Shown one piece after another: positions 24,073 to 30,471 of a stretch of 31,722 nucleotides of DNA. Position 1 is the first letter of the stretch; each line of letters opens with the position of its first letter. A program made the translations under genes and the position numbers. The stretch lies in the UHGV virus genome UHGV-0068509; one strand, given 5' to 3'. The notes under the pieces are model-generated. The model searched no databases and had not been told where the DNA came from. It saw only the letters and a program-made list of their open reading frames with translations. The DNA comes from a virus.

Positions 24073-25449
24073 TCATACGTCAGCCCCTTGTGCATATCGT
24101 CTGCCACGCGCAGCGGGCGCATTTGATGCTGTGCAAATCTGTCTGGCTTCATCCTGGTCACATGCAACAAAGTGTCCGTTACAGAACCGCTGGTAAACCG
24201 TACCAAGCGAGCCAAAACGGTTTTTCGTCACGATGATTTCAGCAAATGGCGCGGCGCTACTGCTCTCGTCATATACCGCTTCCCGATAGAGCATGATGAT
24301 TGAGTCTGCGTCCTGTTCAATGCTTCCTGAATCACGCAAATCTGCGTTTGTCGGGCGTTTGTTTGGTCGCTTCTCAACATCGCGTGAAAGCTGACTCAGG
24401 GAAATAACCGGTGTTTTCAGGTCTTTCGCCATCGCCTTCAGGCTTCCGGAGATGTGAGCAATTGCGAGGTCGTTGCGGTCTGCTTTCGGCTTCTCAATCA
24501 GACCAAGATAATCCGCCATGATGAGTGACAGGTTTGGATTTTCCTGTTTGTGCCGTTCTGCGATTGAGCGTATTTCTTCGACCGATAACCGCGAGGCATC
24601 GACTACCCATACATCCAAATCTGCAAGCTGACTCATGCCGTTAGCAACGCGCGCCCAGCCTTCGTCATCCATCGATGCAGGATTTCGCAGCACGCTAACC
24701 GACATCCTCCCGGCGTTGGCAATACTTCGCTCTGCAATCTGCAATGCGCTCATTTCCATCGAGAAAATCAACACTCCGCGCCGGACGTCAGAACCAGGAA
24801 TAACGCGGCTTGCAACGCCTTCGGCAATCTTCAGCGCCAGTTCGGTTTTACCCATACCAGGACGAGCGGCGATAATCACCAGGTCTTCTGCGTTCATCCC
24901 TCCGGTGATGGCGTCAAGTTCATCGATTCCGGTCTTCAGGGTATCTGACTCTTCTCCGTTCCTCAGACGCCTGTCAAGCGTGTCAGTGTAGTCAGTGATG
25001 ATTTCCCCTAACCGTACAGGTTTAACCTCGTCACGGGGCTTTCTGATGGCTGAAAGACGCTTTACAAGTTCATCCATCGCCTGACTCGATGCGTCGATGG
25101 TTCCGCTCTGAATTGGTTCACGCATTTCATCCATGATTTCCAGAACCAGACGGCGGTGATAGTTATCCGCGACCATTCCGGCATATCCCTTCAGGTTTGC
25201 GGCACTCGGGCAGTTTTTGCTGGTCATCAGGATTGACGTGAAATGTTCCTCTCCGCACGCCTCGGCAACCATCAGCGCGTCGATTAGGTTTCTGTTTCTC
25301 GCCTGCTTACGGATAACTTCGAAGGCTTTCCGGTAGAGCGGAATTGAAAACGCTTCCGGCTCCAGCGTTGCCAGAACGTCGCTGGCGGTTGGAGTTAATC
25401 CACCAATCAGCAGGCCACCGATAACGCTCGCTTCGATATCCTGTTTCAT
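24073..25449 (-). CDS. Replicative DNA helicase, DnaB family (P22 gene 12-like)
   Basis: 458-aa ORF; Walker [17 protein letters not shown], DnaB-like N- and C-terminal regions. Confidence 0.9.
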
Positions 25450-26267
25450 GCAATCCCCCTGTCTGCAAACTTCCCTTCCCGTACCCCCGTTAACGAGTCT
25501 TCCCTCAGCAGGTAATCAAAATCTGCCGTCCAGCCAGTGTCGTTGTCTCCGAAGTAAAACGGCTTGGCCTGATGCACAAACGCCCTGACATACGCTCTGA
25601 AACCGTCCACGTTTGGCGTTTTCAGTTGCGGAATGATTTTCTTCAGGCGGCGTTTTCGTTTCTCGTTGACCGCAACAGCGTGTGGCAGTCTGTCACCGAC
25701 TTCGGTGTTGTAGGCGTTCAGGAAGGATTCGTAGTCGATTCGTTCTGCCTTGCGACGTTCAGGTTTAACCTGCCCATCGCCGCCCCCGTTAGGGGGTAAG
25801 GGGGTGTTTGTATTTATTGTCTTTTGTATATTGTCTTTTGTGTTTAGCTGACTTGGCTTATACCCATTAGCCGACTTGGCTAATGTTTTATTAGCTGTTT
25901 TAGCTAATGTTAAGCTGTCCTGGCTAATCCACTGCGAAACCACCTTGTTCACTCCGATTTTCACGCCATCAGCAATGAGGAATTTACGCTCAATAAGCTG
26001 GCGCTTGGCAGCGCAAACATGAGTGTGATGAATACCTGTCATGGCTGCTATCTGCGTGTTTGTGAGTCGATCCATCGGCTTATTGAATCCGTATGTCTTG
26101 CGCATGATAGCGAGCATCACCTTCAGCTGCCGGACGGTTAAATCAGCCATCAGCAGACTGTCGGTAATCTCGTTAGCAACGCGCATGAAACCATCTTCGG
26201 TATCTGCCACGCGATGCTCCACGACCTCCAGTTGAGGCCTGTAATCAGCTAACTTAACGACGCCCAT
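25446..26267 (-). CDS. O: Replication initiator, lambda O-like
   Basis: 273-aa [39 protein letters not shown] resembles the lambda O N-terminal domain; iteron cluster lies inside the gene. Confidence 0.85.
25782..25930. repeat. ori: Replication origin-like iteron cluster plus AT-rich tract inside the O-like gene
   Basis: Direct repeats tattgtcttttgt (x2), agctgacttggct / agccgacttggct, gctaatgtt (x2), cctggctaat; preceded by palindrome cccccgttaggggg. Confidence 0.65.
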
Positions 26268-26447: not shown

Positions 26448-26744
26448 TCAGAATTGCATATCAATTTGCTTAAAATCCTCGGTGGCGGCCGGGGATTTTT
26501 TCTTTGTGATTTCATCAAGCGCATACTTAAAAGCCCTACTAATCGGACTGATGTCTGATGCCATTCCAAAAGCACACAAGACCGAAGCAATAAACCTCCA
26601 GTCCGTTCTGCTTATCTTCGATTCATGACAGCCAATCATCTTTGCCAGACCGCGCTGGGTAAGCGTTGACAGGTTGATGAGTAAATCAGTTTCAGCGCGA
26701 TCAATTTCTCGCTGTGTTGGCTTGCTGTAACTTGCTTGTGTCAT
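26448..26744 (-). CDS. cII: CII-like transcriptional activator
   Basis: 98-aa ORF; C-terminus TKKKSPAATEDFKQIDMQF resembles the lambda CII C-terminus; HTH ...GLAKMIGCHESKISR. Confidence 0.8.
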   Translation of the reverse strand: MTQASYSKPTQREIDRAETDLLINLSTLTQRGLAKMIGCHESKISRTDWRFIASVLCAFGMASDISPISRAFKYALDEITKKKSPAATEDFKQIDMQF

Positions 26745-26882: not shown

Positions 26883-27116
26883 TTATGCTGCTGATGCTCT
26901 ACGCGATACGAACACCAGGTTTTCCTTTTTCACGGGTTTATAGGCCGTGAAATTACGAGTAGCTTCTTCGATTGCATTCGCTTTATCAGGGGAAGCTCTT
27001 CGAAATCCATATGCAATCTGGTCAAGATAGCCAACTGAAGTTTTCGCTAATGCGGCGAGTCGCTTCCATTCCTCACTAGAAGCCTCTTTTCGCCAGCGTA
27101 GTAGTTCATTACTCAT
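26883..27116 (-). CDS. cro: Cro-like lytic repressor (HTH), divergent from cI
   Basis: 77-aa ORF immediately across the operator region from cI; RBS GGAGG; assignment mainly positional. Confidence 0.6.
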   Translation of the reverse strand: MSNELLRWRKEASSEEWKRLAALAKTSVGYLDQIAYGFRRASPDKANAIEEATRNFTAYKPVKKENLVFVSRRASAA

Positions 27117-27229: not shown

Positions 27230-27934
27230 ATGGAAAACAAAGATATTCGCAAATCGAATCTGGCGTTTTTGCTAGATGAGCATAAAAAAATCGCGGGTAA
27301 CACTAATGCAAGCTTTGCCGATAAGCTTGGGGTTAGCCCTTCTCAACTCACGCAAGTCTCCGGTGAAAAAAGCACTCGAAACATAGGGGATAAACTAGCA
27401 AGAAAATTTGAAGCCGCACTTGGGTTACCTAATGGGTGGCTTGATTTGGTACATGATGTAACACCAATTGCATCATGCTCAGATTCTTTAACTTTTGTCG
27501 GTCAGGTAAGAAAAGGGTTAGTGCGCGTGGTTGGTGAGGCAATTCTTGGTGTTGATGGTGCCATCGAGATGACCGAAGAGCGCGATGGGTGGCTCAAAAT
27601 TTATAGCGATGATCCAGATGCCTTTGGCCTTCGTGTGAAAGGAGACAGCATGTGGCCTAGAATAAAATCAGGAGAATATGTACTCATTGAGCCTAACACC
27701 AAAGTATTCCCGGGTGATGAGGTGTTTGTCAGAACCGTTGAAGGACACAACATGATTAAGGTTCTTGGCTATGACAGAGATGGAGAATACCAGTTTACAA
27801 GCATCAACCAGGACCATAGGCCAATAACGTTGCCTTATCATCAAGTAGCAAAGGTGGAGTATGTGGCTGGTATTCTGAAGCAATCTCGCCATCTGGATGA
27901 CATCGAGGCAAGGGAGTGGCTGAAAAGTTCGTGA
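27230..27934 (+). CDS. cI: CI-type prophage repressor (HTH plus LexA-like S24 autopeptidase domain)
   Basis: 234-aa ORF; N-terminal HTH (ASFADKLGVSPSQLTQV), C-terminal GDSMWPRIKSGEYVLIE...MIKVL (Ser/Lys dyad). Confidence 0.9.
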   Translation: MENKDIRKSNLAFLLDEHKKIAGNTNASFADKLGVSPSQLTQVSGEKSTRNIGDKLARKFEAALGLPNGWLDLVHDVTPIASCSDSLTFVGQVRKGLVRVVGEAILGVDGAIEMTEERDGWLKIYSDDPDAFGLRVKGDSMWPRIKSGEYVLIEPNTKVFPGDEVFVRTVEGHNMIKVLGYDRDGEYQFTSINQDHRPITLPYHQVAKVEYVAGILKQSRHLDDIEAREWLKSS

Positions 27935-28360
27935 CTTCATCGTCACATAGCTGATAGCCAATGGCCTGAAGAGACGTTTGGGTGAAGAGGATAGATGGAG
28001 TTTAATGGCCATGAGTATCACGCGGTCAAAAAGAAGTTCATCTATTCATTGAAAGCATAAGGCCATCTGAGTATATCCGTAATGATCTGGATATTGTCTA
28101 TAACATCAATGACCGGACAATAGATATCGGTGAGCAGCGTCCTGTATGGCAGGGTGAGGCAGGTGAAAAAAACGTCCTGCCATCAACAAGAATCAAGTGC
28201 ATCAGCTCTCTGGACAGATGGAAAATTTATTGGATGCAAAAAGATATGAAATAACACCTGTATAGCACGGAGCTTTCTCTGACCGATGCACTTGAAGTTG
28301 TTAGGGCTGACCCAGCCTGCTGTTTCTTTAGGTAAGAGAAAAGAGATTTAGGAGATGAAA

Positions 28361-28387
28361 GGTCGCAGAGGTGCGGCCTTTTTTATT
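28361..28387 (+). terminator. Intrinsic terminator downstream of cI
   Basis: Hairpin GGTCGCA-GAGG-TGCGGCC (one G-U) followed by TTTTTTATT. Confidence 0.65.
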
Positions 28388-28413
28388 GAGAGTGGATCTT
28401 GAACGGAAATTCT

Positions 28414-28455
28414 CAAGACTTGAGTCTTGCATGCAAATCAATTCCTGGATAAACT
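28414..28455 (+). promoter_or_regulatory. Putative sigma70 promoter of the 173-aa gene with overlapping 16-bp palindrome
   Basis: -35 TTGCAT (28427-28432), 17-nt spacer, -10 TAAACT (28450-28455); palindrome CAAGACT-TG-AGTCTTG (28414-28429) overlaps the -35. Confidence 0.5.
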
Positions 28456-28487
28456 CGATCTGAGTCAATAACTTAGAGAGAGAGCAA

Positions 28488-29009
28488 ATGGCAAAGTCAA
28501 ACGTTAGCGTGCAGGCATTCAAGGACTTCCTTGAAGAGCTTATGTCGCTGAACATAATGAAGGAGGCCACCGCTCGAAATTTAAAAAACTCATCCGCTCG
28601 CCTCTTAACGGTAGTCCAAGAAGAGGAAATGGGTGATGTTACTCAGCTTGATGTGAATGAGCTTGCCGAGCGATACATCAACGCAACTGAGCCGAAGCCT
28701 AGCGACAGCAGCATTACTGCATATAAAAGCCGCATGGAAAGTGCAATCAAAAAGTTTGTAGCTTTCCAGTCTGGTGAAGAAATCCCATACACTCCGATTG
28801 ACAAAGAATCCAGTGAGGAAAAAGATTTGACTGGCGAACCAACAAAAGTCGAAGGCAAGGCTAATGCACTTCATACCTATGATCTTCCAGTAGTTCTTCG
28901 ACCTGAATCAGGGGTTACAGTAACGATTAAAGGCATTCCTAACGATATCACAAACGAAGAAGCCGAACGCATCTCTTCAATTCTGAAGGTTTACGTTCGG
29001 CCTCAATAA
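28488..29009 (+). CDS. Hypothetical 173-aa soluble protein in the cI-pL immunity-region hotspot (rex/sieB-equivalent position); no family recognised
   Basis: ORF with purine-rich RBS and own promoter; no TM segments; acidic helical N-half and beta-rich C-half; flanked by terminators. Confidence 0.7.
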   Translation: MAKSNVSVQAFKDFLEELMSLNIMKEATARNLKNSSARLLTVVQEEEMGDVTQLDVNELAERYINATEPKPSDSSITAYKSRMESAIKKFVAFQSGEEIPYTPIDKESSEEKDLTGEPTKVEGKANALHTYDLPVVLRPESGVTVTIKGIPNDITNEEAERISSILKVYVRPQ

Positions 29010-29311
29010 TGCAAAAGCATTCAGCACAATGTCCAACTCCCCAGTCCGACATTGATGCTGTTTAACCAGAGCCTCCAAAAGGAGCCCTTGTTAAGGTACA
29101 CAATATTTGCGATGTAACCTTAGCGCGTCTGGTACATTTTTTCAAGCGGTTGTAGGGCTGCCGCCAATATGAGAAAACACAGATGTCTACATACAATTTG
29201 AATGACCAATTCGATCGAGAAGTTCATGTGAATGCCTATGAACGGATAAGGCATGGAAATCTTGAACATGTGTGTGAGCATTATCGCTCAAGGCCACACC
29301 GCTAATCATCA

Positions 29312-29339
29312 ACCCGGCCTCAGCGCCGGGTTTTCTTTG
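29312..29339 (+). terminator. Intrinsic terminator (tIMM-like) upstream of oL/pL
   Basis: Hairpin ACCCGGC-CTCAGC-GCCGGGT followed by TTTTCTTT. Confidence 0.65.
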
Positions 29340-29518
29340 CCTCTCGATCCCCCACCTAAAAAAAACATAACTCATTGTATTTATTGAAAAACTGATTGAT
29401 ACAACTTGCTAAACCACGCAATCCAGATCTCCCTCAAATCTCTTTATTTATCCTGTCGAATTCCTACAACAAAATAAAACACCATAAGAATCAATACGAT
29501 ATTTGAAAATCAAAAGAA

Positions 29519-29562
29519 TTTATCATTTTGCTATTGCCATTAATTTATCATTCCGATAAAGT
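29519..29562 (+). promoter_or_regulatory. oL/pL: operator sites with TTTATCA half-sites overlapping a candidate leftward-operon promoter
   Basis: TTTATCATTTTGCTATT and TTTATCATTCCGATAAA; -35 TTGCCA (29534-29539), 17-nt spacer, -10 TAAAGT (29557-29562). Confidence 0.55.
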
Positions 29563-29630: not shown

Positions 29631-29645
29631 GCGCTGACAAAGCGC
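29631..29645 (+). promoter_or_regulatory. nutL: nutL boxB hairpin
   Basis: GCGC-TGACAAA-GCGC, matching the P22-type boxB as I recall it; upstream of the N-like gene. Confidence 0.6.
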
Positions 29646-29678
29646 AATAACCAAAGTGAACTTTGGGGTGTGGTGAAG
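29641..29678 (+). repeat. Leader repeat A, copy 1 (38 bp; contains hairpin CCAAAGT-GA-ACTTTGG)
   Basis: Identical 38-bp copy at 29918-29955. Confidence 0.8.
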
Positions 29679-29874
29679 CCAGCTAGTCACTGGCAAGTGC
29701 TTACCTACTGTTGAGCGGTGAAGCGCTCCCAACGCTAGCAATAGCGTGGACGAGATGGGGAGCCGCGGGCGATAAGGCCGCCATAACGCGCACGTTGTCG
29801 CATGGAAAAATCACTGGGGTGCCGGTTATACCCCTCCGAATGAGACTCAACAAGCTGGAGCTAGACTACCAGCC

Positions 29875-29918
29875 ACCACACCACCAAAGTTCATCAGGAG
29901 GTCTATATGACACGCAGA
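29875..29918 (+). repeat. Leader repeat B, copy 1 (44 bp; contains RBS AGGAGG, ATG and the first four N codons)
   Basis: Identical 44-bp copy at 30056-30099, which is the genuine N start; this copy opens a mini-ORF MTRRAQ (29907-29927). Confidence 0.8.
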
Positions 29919-29955
29919 GCGCAATAACCAAAGTGAACTTTGGGGTGTGGTGAAG
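29918..29955 (+). repeat. Leader repeat A, copy 2
   Basis: Identical to 29641-29678. Confidence 0.8.
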
Positions 29956-30055
29956 GGTTCATGGACGGGAATATGTCGCACGTAAAGCGGCGAGGCCTGC
30001 GGGACTATTGCCGAATTGAAGTAGGCCGAAACAGGTCGAAATGGGTCTCCCACCT

Positions 30056-30099
30056 ACCACACCACCAAAGTTCATCAGGAGGTCTATATGACACGCAGA
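30056..30099 (+). repeat. Leader repeat B, copy 2 (genuine N translation-initiation region)
   Basis: Identical to 29875-29918. Confidence 0.8.
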
Positions 30100-30471
30100 A
30101 CTCAGTTCAAAGGCAATTCACGTTCTCGTCGTCGTGAGCGTTTAAAGGCAAAGGCATTAGCTAACGGCGTACTGGCCCGCGAAGAAGCAATAAGTTCAGA
30201 AGTATTACACCGCCCTACTCTAAGCAGAGCGCAGATTCAGGCTAAAGGTACTCACGAAACGCCTGAGCGCATAGAAGACGCTAAGCCAATTAAGTTCATG
30301 GCACAGGACGTGATCTGGCAACAGAAAGAATACAGACGCAATCTGGAGCGAGCGGCCATTGTGTACGCGAATGAGTTTGGACATAAGCAACCAGAAACTG
30401 GTGTATGTCTTCCAAACGTAGCCATTTACTCGGCAGGCTACCGGAAATCAAAACAACTGACGGCGAGGTAA
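30088..30471 (+). CDS. N: N-like early antiterminator (P22 gp24 family) with Arg-rich RNA-binding N-terminus
   Basis: MTRRTQFKGNSRSRRRERLKAKA (arginine-rich motif); C-terminus ...VAIYSAGYRKSKQLTAR resembles P22 gp24. Confidence 0.8.
   Translation: MTRRTQFKGNSRSRRRERLKAKALANGVLAREEAISSEVLHRPTLSRAQIQAKGTHETPERIEDAKPIKFMAQDVIWQQKEYRRNLERAAIVYANEFGHKQPETGVCLPNVAIYSAGYRKSKQLTAR

What the first reader, a model, noticed from the sequence alone, without database searches (positions are those of the whole stretch)
28414..28429. Perfect 16-bp palindrome overlapping the -35 of the 173-aa gene promoter
CAAGACT-TG-AGTCTTG is an exact inverted repeat, and a further TCTTGA/TCAAGA repeat lies just upstream (28397-28418). 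It differs from the TTTATCA operator half-sites of cI/cro, so it would be bound by a different regulator, possibly the 173-aa protein itself or a host factor.
Basis: seen in the sequence. Interest (0 to 1): 0.4.

Follow-up and report, generated by a model that had tools for sequence, protein, structure and literature searches.

The report
Operator-like repeat at ECs1184 promoter
A short inverted repeat sits on the -35 element of the private promoter of an uncharacterised Shiga-toxin-prophage gene (ECs1184, reported as undeletable), and it is conserved across prophages with unrelated repressors, so it is probably a binding site for a regulator other than CI/Cro, though nothing has yet been shown to bind it.

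Summary
The window is the immunity region of an Sp5/VT2-Sakai-type Stx prophage. The repeat is real at 28414-28429, but it is 7+2+7 (CAAGACT-tg-AGTCTTG), not a perfect 16-mer. On its own it is not beyond chance: the window holds 16 such repeats against 8.7±3.1 expected. Its value comes from comparison. It overlaps the TTG of a promoter (TTGCAT-17-TAAACT, 28427-28455) found in about 27 distinct homologous loci. The left arm is the first conserved element of a mobile one-gene cassette (about 28360-29341) that always lies between cI and N. The arms AAGA(C/T)…(G/A)TCTT persist in E. coli, Salmonella, Cronobacter, Yersinia, Proteus and Morganella prophages whose CI proteins are only about 30% identical. 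That excludes CI/Cro as the binder. The centre varies (1, 2 or 4 nt), and Serratia has a direct repeat of AGTCTT instead. A distant subfamily carries different, co-varying arms with the same dyad axis (about -41). The hairpins are weak (-1 to -4.6 kcal/mol). Best reading: a repressor operator, possibly autoregulatory. The product has a weak integrase SAM-like N-domain, a disordered linker and a small C-domain, but it is acidic. The binder is unproven. It is an ordinary kind of element attached to an interesting, unexplained gene.

The parts
28357..28385 (+). Intrinsic terminator (AAAGGTCGCA-GAGG-TGCGGCCTTTTTT) that ends transcription coming from cI. It marks the left edge of the cassette shared with other prophages.
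   Evidence: RNA fold -15.9 kcal/mol, z = -4.0. Homology with Salmonella phage Oslo starts here.
28397..28402 (.). Upstream TCTTGA copy, an inverted partner of TCAAGA 28413-28418. It overlaps GATC 28395-28398.
   Evidence: Read. Kept in Oslo and Salmonella loci but absent from Cronobacter, Yersinia and Proteus loci, so it is not a core part.
28414..28429 (.). The inverted repeat CAAGACT-tg-AGTCTTG. Its dyad axis lies at about -40.5 relative to the predicted +1. The right arm overlaps the TTG of the -35.
   Evidence: The arms are conserved in homologous promoters. It is unique in the window.
28427..28432 (+). -35 hexamer TTGCAT.
   Evidence: TTGnnn-17/18-TAnnnT lies 55-74 nt upstream of the start codon in about 27 distinct loci, with a variable spacer sequence.
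28450..28455 (+). -10 hexamer TAAACT (TAGAAT in other genera), preceded by a conserved TGG.
28457..28460 (.). GATC (Dam site) between the -10 and the predicted start (about 28462). TCGATCTG is conserved in the close subfamily.
   Evidence: Every family promoter examined has GATC in or beside its core elements.
28488..29009 (+). 173-aa gene = ECs1184 / ORF23 of Sp5 (VT2-Sap23, PHROG 2602). It has an N-terminal four-helix domain, a disordered acidic linker and a C-terminal beta-beta-alpha domain.
   Evidence: Literature: PMC5155283 (could not be deleted) and PMC7618764 (protein detected in EHEC).
29183..29305 (+). 40-aa ORF in the conserved 3' part of the cassette. Its status as a gene is uncertain.
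   Evidence: About 90% DNA identity with Oslo through window ~29341. Oslo annotates a similar small ORF.
29311..29332 (+). Intrinsic terminator closing the cassette, upstream of OL/pL and N.
   Evidence: 8-bp stem, 6 GC pairs, T-run. It lies at the right end of the homology with Oslo.

Best explanation
The repeat is an operator, a binding site for a dimeric regulator, that controls the sigma-70 promoter of ECs1184. ECs1184 is a self-contained, terminator-flanked one-gene cassette that lysogens express independently of CI. The right half-site covers the TTG of the -35, and the hexamers look competent without help. Occupancy should therefore block RNA polymerase, making the element repressive. 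The most likely binder is the cassette's own product, giving negative autoregulation: two N-terminal integrase-SAM-like domains, tethered by long disordered linkers to a small C-terminal dimerisation domain, would each contact one A(G/A)TCTT half-site. Shown here: the repeat, its position, the promoter's conservation, the conservation of the half-sites across immunity types, and the exclusion of CI/Cro. Inferred: that a protein binds, that binding represses, and that the binder is ECs1184. I put about 0.5 on 'functional protein-binding site of some regulator' and about 0.3 on 'ECs1184 is that regulator'.
For: The promoter TTGCAT-17-TAAACT is conserved with a variable spacer sequence in about 27 loci. 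The left arm lies outside the -35, yet it is the first conserved element of the cassette, and sequence upstream of it is unrelated between sub-groups. There are 0/16 changes versus Oslo, against 8/29 just upstream. The cassette always lies between cI and N, while CI is only about 30% identical among these loci. The half-site is retained while its arrangement changes: inverted with a 1-, 2- or 4-nt centre, and direct AGTCTT-tct-AGTCTT in Serratia. This fits flexibly tethered DNA-binding domains. The AF2 model has a 25-residue disordered linker (residues 103-127) between two folded domains. A distant subfamily has different 13-nt arms at -61..-49 and -33..-21 that co-vary within loci (6.9/9 vs 5.7/9, permutation p = 0.0003), with the dyad axis at about -41, the same as here. 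Of 47 family members, 7 hit Phage_int_SAM_1 (best E 3.6e-4), with further hits to SAM_3/4/5/6, and no other family recurs more than twice. Integrase N-domains recur among the top, non-significant Foldseek hits. No other regulator gene is in the cassette. The protein is made in EHEC (PMC7618764). The gene could not be deleted from an Sp5 lysogen (PMC5155283).
Against: No binding data exist. The repeat alone is within chance expectation. There are no compensatory double changes in the close subfamily, only conservation, and the right arm is constrained anyway by the -35. Half-site spacing varies by 1-3 bp, which rigid dimers do not tolerate. ECs1184 is acidic (pI 4.9, N-domain net charge -4). 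Its most conserved motif, TARNLKNS, is identical in subfamilies with entirely different repeats. All Pfam and Foldseek similarities are below significance thresholds. The PNK assay found it not to be a strong nucleic-acid (RNA) binder (PMC7618764).
Confidence: 0.35

Rival explanations
1. The repeat is a binding site for a host transcription factor conserved in Enterobacterales. The factor could be a class II-type activator or a repressor centred near -41, and it would tie expression of the prophage gene to a host signal.
For: The dyad axis at -40.5 (-41.5 if +1 is 28463) is the classical position of CRP/FNR-type class II sites. The -35 is only 3/6 to consensus. The arms are conserved in prophages of six genera, independent of immunity type.
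Against: It does not match the sites I could recall for CRP, FNR, LexA, CII (TTGC-N6-TTGC), NarL 7-2-7, the RcsB box (spacing is wrong by 1-2 bp), MetJ or SoxR. These comparisons are from memory, not from a database test. The spacing between arms changes between hosts. The Serratia and distant subfamilies have different repeats even though they also sit in Enterobacterales prophages. TTG of the -35 is invariant and Serratia has TTGACT, so the promoter does not look activator-dependent. No paper in the held library contains the sequence.
Confidence: 0.2
2. The symmetry has no separate function. The conserved bases upstream of the -35 are simply part of the promoter context, or are young shared ancestry, and the dyad is coincidental.
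For: Repeats of this size are expected by chance (16 observed vs 8.7 +/- 3.1). The right arm is fixed by the -35. There is no compensatory covariation in the close subfamily. The symmetry degrades in Proteus and Cronobacter (5/7 matching half-sites), L110 (3/7) and L018. All 233 matching E. coli records (232 genomes) are >=99% identical and so give no information.
Against: The left arm stays conserved where the promoter spacer and the upstream flank have diverged beyond alignment. A different dyad with co-varying arms and the same axis occurs in a distant subfamily, so symmetry at about -41 is a family trait rather than an accident of one lineage.
Confidence: 0.3
3. The repeat acts as a nucleic-acid hairpin: a cruciform in DNA, or a stem-loop in RNA that reads through from cI.
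For: The centre varies in length and sequence while the arms are kept (3-, 4- or 6-nt loops), which is the pattern expected of a hairpin.
Against: The predicted stabilities are marginal: -3.8 kcal/mol here, and -1.1 to -2.1 in Yersinia, Cronobacter, Proteus and L020. No T-run follows. A strong terminator lies 30 nt upstream, so little read-through RNA is expected. In Serratia the repeat is direct, not inverted.
Confidence: 0.05
4. The repeat is an extra operator for the prophage's own CI or Cro.
For: It lies in the immunity region, 480 nt downstream of cI.
Against: It has no similarity to the TTTATCA-type operators. An identical or near-identical repeat occurs in prophages whose CI N-terminal domains are 25-39% identical.
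Confidence: 0.02

Closest known systems
Lambdoid CI/Cro operators (OR, OL)
   Same: Both are short dyad-symmetric sites that overlap a promoter hexamer in the immunity region of a lambdoid prophage and act by occluding RNA polymerase.
   Different: The half-site is unrelated (AGTCTT vs TTTATCA). This is a single site rather than a triplet. It is conserved across immunity types, so it cannot be read by CI or Cro.
Autoregulated stand-alone prophage or toxin-antitoxin promoters (a palindromic operator over the -35/-10, bound by the product of the first gene)
   Same: It is a self-contained cassette with its own promoter, a palindrome on the promoter and no other regulator gene. It is expressed in the lysogen.
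   Different: The product has no recognisable HTH, RHH or AbrB domain and no toxin partner. PADLOC and NCBIfam gave no hits. Binding is untested.
Class II activator sites (CRP/FNR family) centred at -41.5
   Same: The dyad axis lies at about -40.5/-41.5 and overlaps the -35.
   Different: The sequence does not fit TGTGA-N6-TCACA or TTGAT-N4-ATCAA (comparison from memory). The TTG of the -35 is intact and conserved. The spacing is variable.
Tyrosine-recombinase core-binding (SAM-like) domains on inverted core sites
   Same: There is recurrent weak sequence and fold similarity of the N-domain to integrase SAM-like domains. Such domains bind inverted-repeat arms.
   Different: There is no catalytic domain. 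All scores are below threshold. The centre here is 2 bp, not a 6-8 bp crossover region. The protein is acidic.
Flexibly linked dimeric regulators that tolerate different half-site spacing and orientation (AraC is the textbook case, cited from general knowledge)
   Same: The half-site is conserved while its spacing (1, 2 or 4 nt) and even its orientation (direct in Serratia) change. The candidate binder has a long disordered linker.
   Different: There is no sequence or fold relationship to AraC. This is an analogy of mechanism only.

Membership tests
Repressor operator at a sigma-70 promoter | Dyad-symmetric sequence | tested here: met
   7+2+7 exact inverted repeat at 28414-28429.
Repressor operator at a sigma-70 promoter | Overlap with a core promoter element of a real promoter | tested here: met
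   The right arm covers the TTG of the -35. The promoter is inferred from conservation of the hexamers and 17-nt spacing in about 27 loci. The TSS has not been mapped.
Repressor operator at a sigma-70 promoter | Conservation beyond the neutral flanks in orthologous promoters | tested here: met
   The left arm is conserved where the flanks and the spacer are not. There is no compensatory covariation in the close subfamily, but co-varying arms occur in the distant subfamily.
Repressor operator at a sigma-70 promoter | A cognate protein binds it and changes transcription | not testable with these tools
   Needs EMSA or footprinting, reporter fusions, or ChIP.
Lambdoid CI/Cro operator | Half-sites matching the phage's OR/OL operators, and specificity that tracks the immunity type | tested here: not met
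   OR and OL carry TTTATCA-type sites. The repeat is shared by prophages with about 30%-identical CI.
LexA SOS box | CTG-N10-CAG with an AT-rich centre | tested here: not met
   There is none at or near 28414-28429. Such boxes do occur 124-134 nt upstream of the gene in other prophages.
CII-activated promoter | TTGC-N6-TTGC straddling the -35 | tested here: not met
   The sequence is TTGC-ATGCAA-ATCA. The second repeat is absent here and in the homologs.
Class II CRP/FNR-type activator site | Site centred at -41.5 with the family consensus half-sites | tested here: inconclusive
   The position fits (-40.5/-41.5 from the predicted +1). The half-sites do not match the CRP or FNR consensus as recalled. 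No position-weight-matrix library was available.
Intrinsic terminator / stable hairpin | GC-rich stem of adequate stability followed by a T-run | tested here: not met
   -3.8 kcal/mol, no T-run, and homologs at -1.1 to -4.6 kcal/mol.
Tyrosine-recombinase SAM-like (core-binding) domain, for the ECs1184 N-domain | Pfam match above the gathering threshold or a significant fold match | tested here: inconclusive
   E 0.047, 14.4 bits against a 22.3 cutoff. 7/47 members hit SAM_1, best E 3.6e-4. Foldseek hits to integrase N-domains are at E >= 0.28.
Dam-methylation-sensitive promoter | GATC within core promoter elements, and expression that depends on dam | tested here: inconclusive
   GATC lies at 28457-28460 between the -10 and +1, and in or beside the core elements of all family promoters examined. 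The effect of methylation cannot be tested here.

The most novel reading that the evidence does not exclude
ECs1184 would represent a widespread, unnamed family: 636 cluster representatives at 50% identity, and no Pfam, NCBIfam or PADLOC model. Its members would be integrase-core-binding-domain-only proteins that dimerise through a small C-terminal domain on long flexible tethers. They would autoregulate their own promoters through subfamily-specific, co-evolving dyads centred at about -41. In Sp5, this autoregulated and terminator-bounded unit would sit just upstream of pL/nutL/N. Losing its control would drive transcription into N, which would explain why ORF23 cannot be deleted from the lysogen.
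Probability: 0.15. Interest if true: 0.6.

Novelty: new member of a known kind. Interest (0 to 1): 0.35.

Why it matters
ECs1184 (ORF23) is one of only two early-region Sp5 ORFs that could not be deleted from a Stx2-prophage lysogen, and it has no known function. Its promoter is the only visible handle on how it is controlled. If the repeat is its operator, simple reporter, EMSA and ChIP experiments would identify the regulator. They would also show whether the protein binds DNA, and would test whether misregulation of this cassette destabilises lysogeny of a Shiga-toxin phage. If the repeat has no function, the finding is just a conserved promoter-proximal sequence.

Tried and rejected
- **Second copies of the site.** I searched the window with up to 3 mismatches, and with half-sites at 0-6 nt spacing. 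Only the site itself was found.
- **Exact 16-mer in IMG/VR.** There were 53 loci. 23 are the same cassette and 30 are unrelated, mostly coding, contexts, so there is no regulon signal.
- **E. coli genomes.** 233 records in 232 of 5426 genomes carry the promoter. All are >=99% identical and give no information on constraint. A whole-host-genome scan for the motif was not possible with the tools.
- **Second inverted repeat inside the ORF (28518-28535).** It is explained by the codons F-K-D-F-L-E and is not kept at synonymous sites.
- **Hairpin reading.** The predicted energies are too weak.
- **Known motifs.** Sigma-54, sigma-32, CII, LexA, SoxR, RcsB, NarL, MetJ and CytR motifs were compared by eye from memory. 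None fits. This is not a database test.
- **Small convergent gene.** One lies downstream of the homolog in Salmonella, Morganella and Serratia loci and was considered as a possible partner regulator. It is absent from the window.
- **Protein annotation.** Pfam is sub-threshold only. PHROG 2602 is of unknown function. PADLOC and NCBIfam gave nothing.
- **Structure searches.** A PDB sequence-profile search found nothing credible. Foldseek against PDB on two AF2 models gave no hit with E < 0.1.
- **Literature.** A search for the sequence returned 0 papers.

Full report
**Where the finding sits.** The window matches VT2-Sakai/Sp5-type Shiga-toxin phages at 100% over the query 28300-29100 (VT2-Sakai, Stx1-converting phage, Nil2 and many O157 Stx2a phages). 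The local order is:
- P/DnaB-like gene, 24073-25449 (-)
- O, 25446-26267 (-)
- cII, 26448-26744 (-)
- cro, 26883-27116 (-)
- cI, 27230-27934 (+)
- a 173-aa ORF, 28488-29009 (+)
- OL/pL, about 29440-29560
- N, 30088-30471 (+)

In the Sakai chromosome the 173-aa ORF is ECs1184 and cI is ECs1185.

**The observation.** CAAGACTTGAGTCTTG is at 28414-28429. It is an exact inverted repeat with 7-nt arms around a 2-nt centre, TG. The centre is not self-complementary, so the reverse strand differs at two positions. It is therefore not strictly a perfect 16-bp palindrome. The upstream pair TCTTGA (28397-28402) / TCAAGA (28413-28418) is present. CTCAAGaCTTGAG (28412-28424) is a second, overlapping palindrome. 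As a bare statistic the repeat is ordinary: the window has 16 inverted repeats with arms >=7 and spacer <=4, against 8.7 +/- 3.1 (maximum 17) in Markov shuffles. It has no second copy in the 31.7 kb, even allowing mismatches or variable spacing.

**The promoter.** TTGCAT (28427-28432), a 17-nt spacer and TAAACT (28450-28455) lie 61 nt before the ATG. The consensus scan missed this promoter because the -35 matches only 3/6. Comparison makes it convincing. A pattern TTGnnn-17/18-TAnnnT lies 55-74 nt upstream of the start codon in about 27 distinct homologous loci, and the spacer sequence diverges freely between them. Taking the -10 as -12..-7 puts +1 near 28462 and the dyad axis of the repeat at -40.5. 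The right arm covers the TTG of the -35. The protein is made in EHEC: it was recovered in an RNA-interactome purification at FDR 0.065, although a PNK assay showed it is not a strong RNA binder (PMC7618764).

**The cassette.**
- Homologs of the 173-aa protein occur in E. coli, Salmonella, Cronobacter, Yersinia, Proteus, Providencia, Morganella and Serratia.
- In every locus long enough to show context, the gene lies between cI and N of a lambdoid prophage. A more distant Erwinia member sits among tail genes, another typical site for accessory genes that prophages carry.
- Homology between the window and Salmonella phage Oslo runs from the terminator at 28357-28385 (-15.9 kcal/mol) to about 29341, just past a second terminator at 29311-29332.
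- The unit is therefore a terminator-bounded, one-gene cassette of about 1 kb with its own promoter.
- The CI proteins next to it are only 27-52% identical to the window's CI, and 25-39% in the DNA-binding N-terminus.

**Conservation of the repeat.** Against Oslo the 16 nt are unchanged, while the 29 nt just upstream carry 8 changes and the first 7 nt of the promoter spacer carry 3. The table shows the other loci.

| Locus | Sequence at the repeat |
|---|---|
| Other Salmonella loci | CAAGAC-ccga-GTCTTG |
| Yersinia and L098 | TAAGACT-t-AGTCTTG |
| Cronobacter | TAAGACT-t-AATCTTG |
| Proteus / Providencia | TAAGATT-a-AGTCTTG |
| Morganella | CAAGATT-a-AGTCTTG |
| L020 | AAGGACT-gatc-AGTCTTG |
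| Serratia | AGTCTT-tct-AGTCTTG (direct repeat) |
| L018 | degenerate |

Upstream of the left arm the sub-groups are unrelated, so the left arm is the first conserved element of the cassette. The half-site A(G/A)TCTT is therefore under constraint outside the -35. The spacing, and in one lineage the orientation, are not fixed, and no lineage shows a compensatory double change. Because the repeat is shared by prophages of different immunity, CI and Cro are excluded as the binder. Their operators here are TTTATCA-type.

**A family-level pattern.** In a distant subfamily (41-46% protein identity; loci L111-L128 and L004) the promoter is TTGATC-17/18-TA(A/G)ACT. It is flanked by 13-nt arms at about -61..-49 and -33..-21, for example GGATTCATCGATC … GATCGATGAATCC. 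Arms from the same locus match better than arms from different loci (6.9 vs 5.7 of the 9 outer positions; permutation p = 0.0003). The dyad axis is at about -41, the same as in the window. So symmetry about -41 is a recurring, selected feature of this family's promoters, although the arm sequence and geometry differ. GATC lies in or beside the core elements of every promoter examined. In the window it is at 28395-28398 and at 28457-28460, between the -10 and +1.

**The candidate binder.**
- A profile search finds 636 representatives at E <= 1e-3. Nearly all of the 150 best hits listed are 160-210 aa.
- There is no Pfam, NCBIfam or PADLOC family, and PHROG 2602 is of unknown function.
- AF2 with a 32-sequence alignment gives mean pLDDT 77. 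It shows a confident four-helix N-domain (residues 8-94, pLDDT about 90), a disordered linker (103-127) and a beta-beta-alpha C-domain (130-169, pLDDT about 88).
- The N-domain gives recurrent sub-threshold matches to integrase SAM-like (core-binding) domains. The window protein scores E 0.047. Of 47 members, 7 hit SAM_1 (best E 3.6e-4), with further hits to SAM_3/4/5/6, and no other family recurs more than twice.
- Integrase N-domains (2kiw, 5j0n, 1z1g, 2a3v, 3nrw) appear among the top Foldseek hits, none significant.
- Two DNA-binding domains on long tethers would tolerate the observed changes in half-site spacing and orientation.
- Against this, the enterobacterial subfamily is acidic (pI 4.9; N-domain net charge -4).
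- Its most conserved motif, TARNLKNS, is identical in subfamilies whose repeats differ.

**Alternatives.**
- A hairpin or cruciform is unlikely. The stems are worth only -3.8 kcal/mol here and -1.1 to -2.1 in several homologs, no T-run follows, and a strong terminator lies just upstream.
- LexA, CII, sigma-54 and the CRP, FNR, RcsB, NarL, SoxR and MetJ consensus sites do not fit. LexA was tested. The others were compared from memory.
- A host factor centred at the class II position remains possible.
- So does the null reading, that the symmetry is incidental to a conserved promoter-upstream sequence.

**Literature.** ORF23 (ECs1184) and ORF21 (ECs1180) were the only early-region Sp5 ORFs that could not be deleted. 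The authors suggested they are needed for stable lysogeny (PMC5155283). No paper in the held library mentions the repeat sequence.

**Verdict.** Comparison shows it is a conserved, promoter-embedded, CI-independent dyad. It is most likely an operator (about 0.5). The cassette's own product is the favoured but unproven binder (about 0.3), a host factor is next (about 0.2), and no function is about 0.3. As a kind of element it is ordinary. Its interest comes from the unexplained, apparently essential prophage gene it controls.

Noticed in passing
L010 2786-2801, L012 2867-2882, L098 2367-2382, L003 3877-3892, L014 2876-2891, L016 2819-2834: In related prophages a LexA-box-like CTG-N10-CAG (for example CTGAATTCATATACAG) lies 124-134 nt upstream of the homologous gene (182 nt in L016). 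In L010, L012 and L098 it overlaps a TTGACG-16-TATACA promoter and is followed at once by a short intrinsic terminator. This looks like an SOS-controlled mini-transcript or attenuated read-through into the cassette. The window has no such box at this position.
   Followed up: partly
window 29638-29678 / 29915-29955 and 29866-29923 / 30047-30104: Two direct-repeat pairs downstream of pL were found. One is a 41-nt segment containing the hairpin CCAAAGTGAACTTTGG (98% identical copies), which I read as the nutL region. The other is 58 nt spanning the ribosome-binding site and first codons of N (AGGAGGTCTATATGACACGCAGA, 91%). A truncated N start at 29908 therefore precedes the full N gene at 30088.
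   Followed up: no
window 28395-28398 and 28457-28460; all family promoters (L004-L006, L016, L019, L111-L131): GATC (Dam) sites lie inside or directly beside the -35/-10 or the start site in every promoter of this gene family examined, often as CGATCG. This suggests methylation-sensitive expression or GATC-centred operators.
   Followed up: partly
window 28518-28535: An 8+2+8 inverted repeat, TTCAAGGA-ct-TCCTTGAA, lies 30 nt into the ORF and resembles the promoter repeat. It arises from the codons for F-K-D-F-L-E and is not preserved at synonymous sites in homologs, so it is probably coincidental.
   Followed up: yes
window 29010-29341: About 330 nt downstream of the ECs1184 stop are 90% identical to Salmonella phage Oslo. 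They include a 40-aa ORF (29183-29305, with a promoter-like ATGAGA-17-TACAAT at 29169-29197) and end at the terminator 29311-29332. This is a conserved 3' part of the cassette with unknown content: a small protein, an sRNA or a 3'UTR.
   Followed up: partly
window 28427-28436: TTGCATGCAA is a perfect 10-bp palindrome formed by the -35 and the first 4 spacer bases. It would give a mirror-image TTGCAT on the minus strand. It is not conserved in Oslo (TTGCATATGA), so it is probably incidental.
   Followed up: yes
L002 3488-3697, L021 3861-4064, L014 3878-4075, L016 3871-4047: Many related prophages have a small acidic convergent gene (58-69 aa) between the ECs1184 homolog and N. The window lacks it (tblastn found no credible match).
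   Followed up: partly
P0144: A 2285-aa protein matches the linker/C-terminal beta-beta-alpha part of the family profile 11 times. The small C-domain may therefore also exist as a tandem repeat module elsewhere.
   Followed up: no
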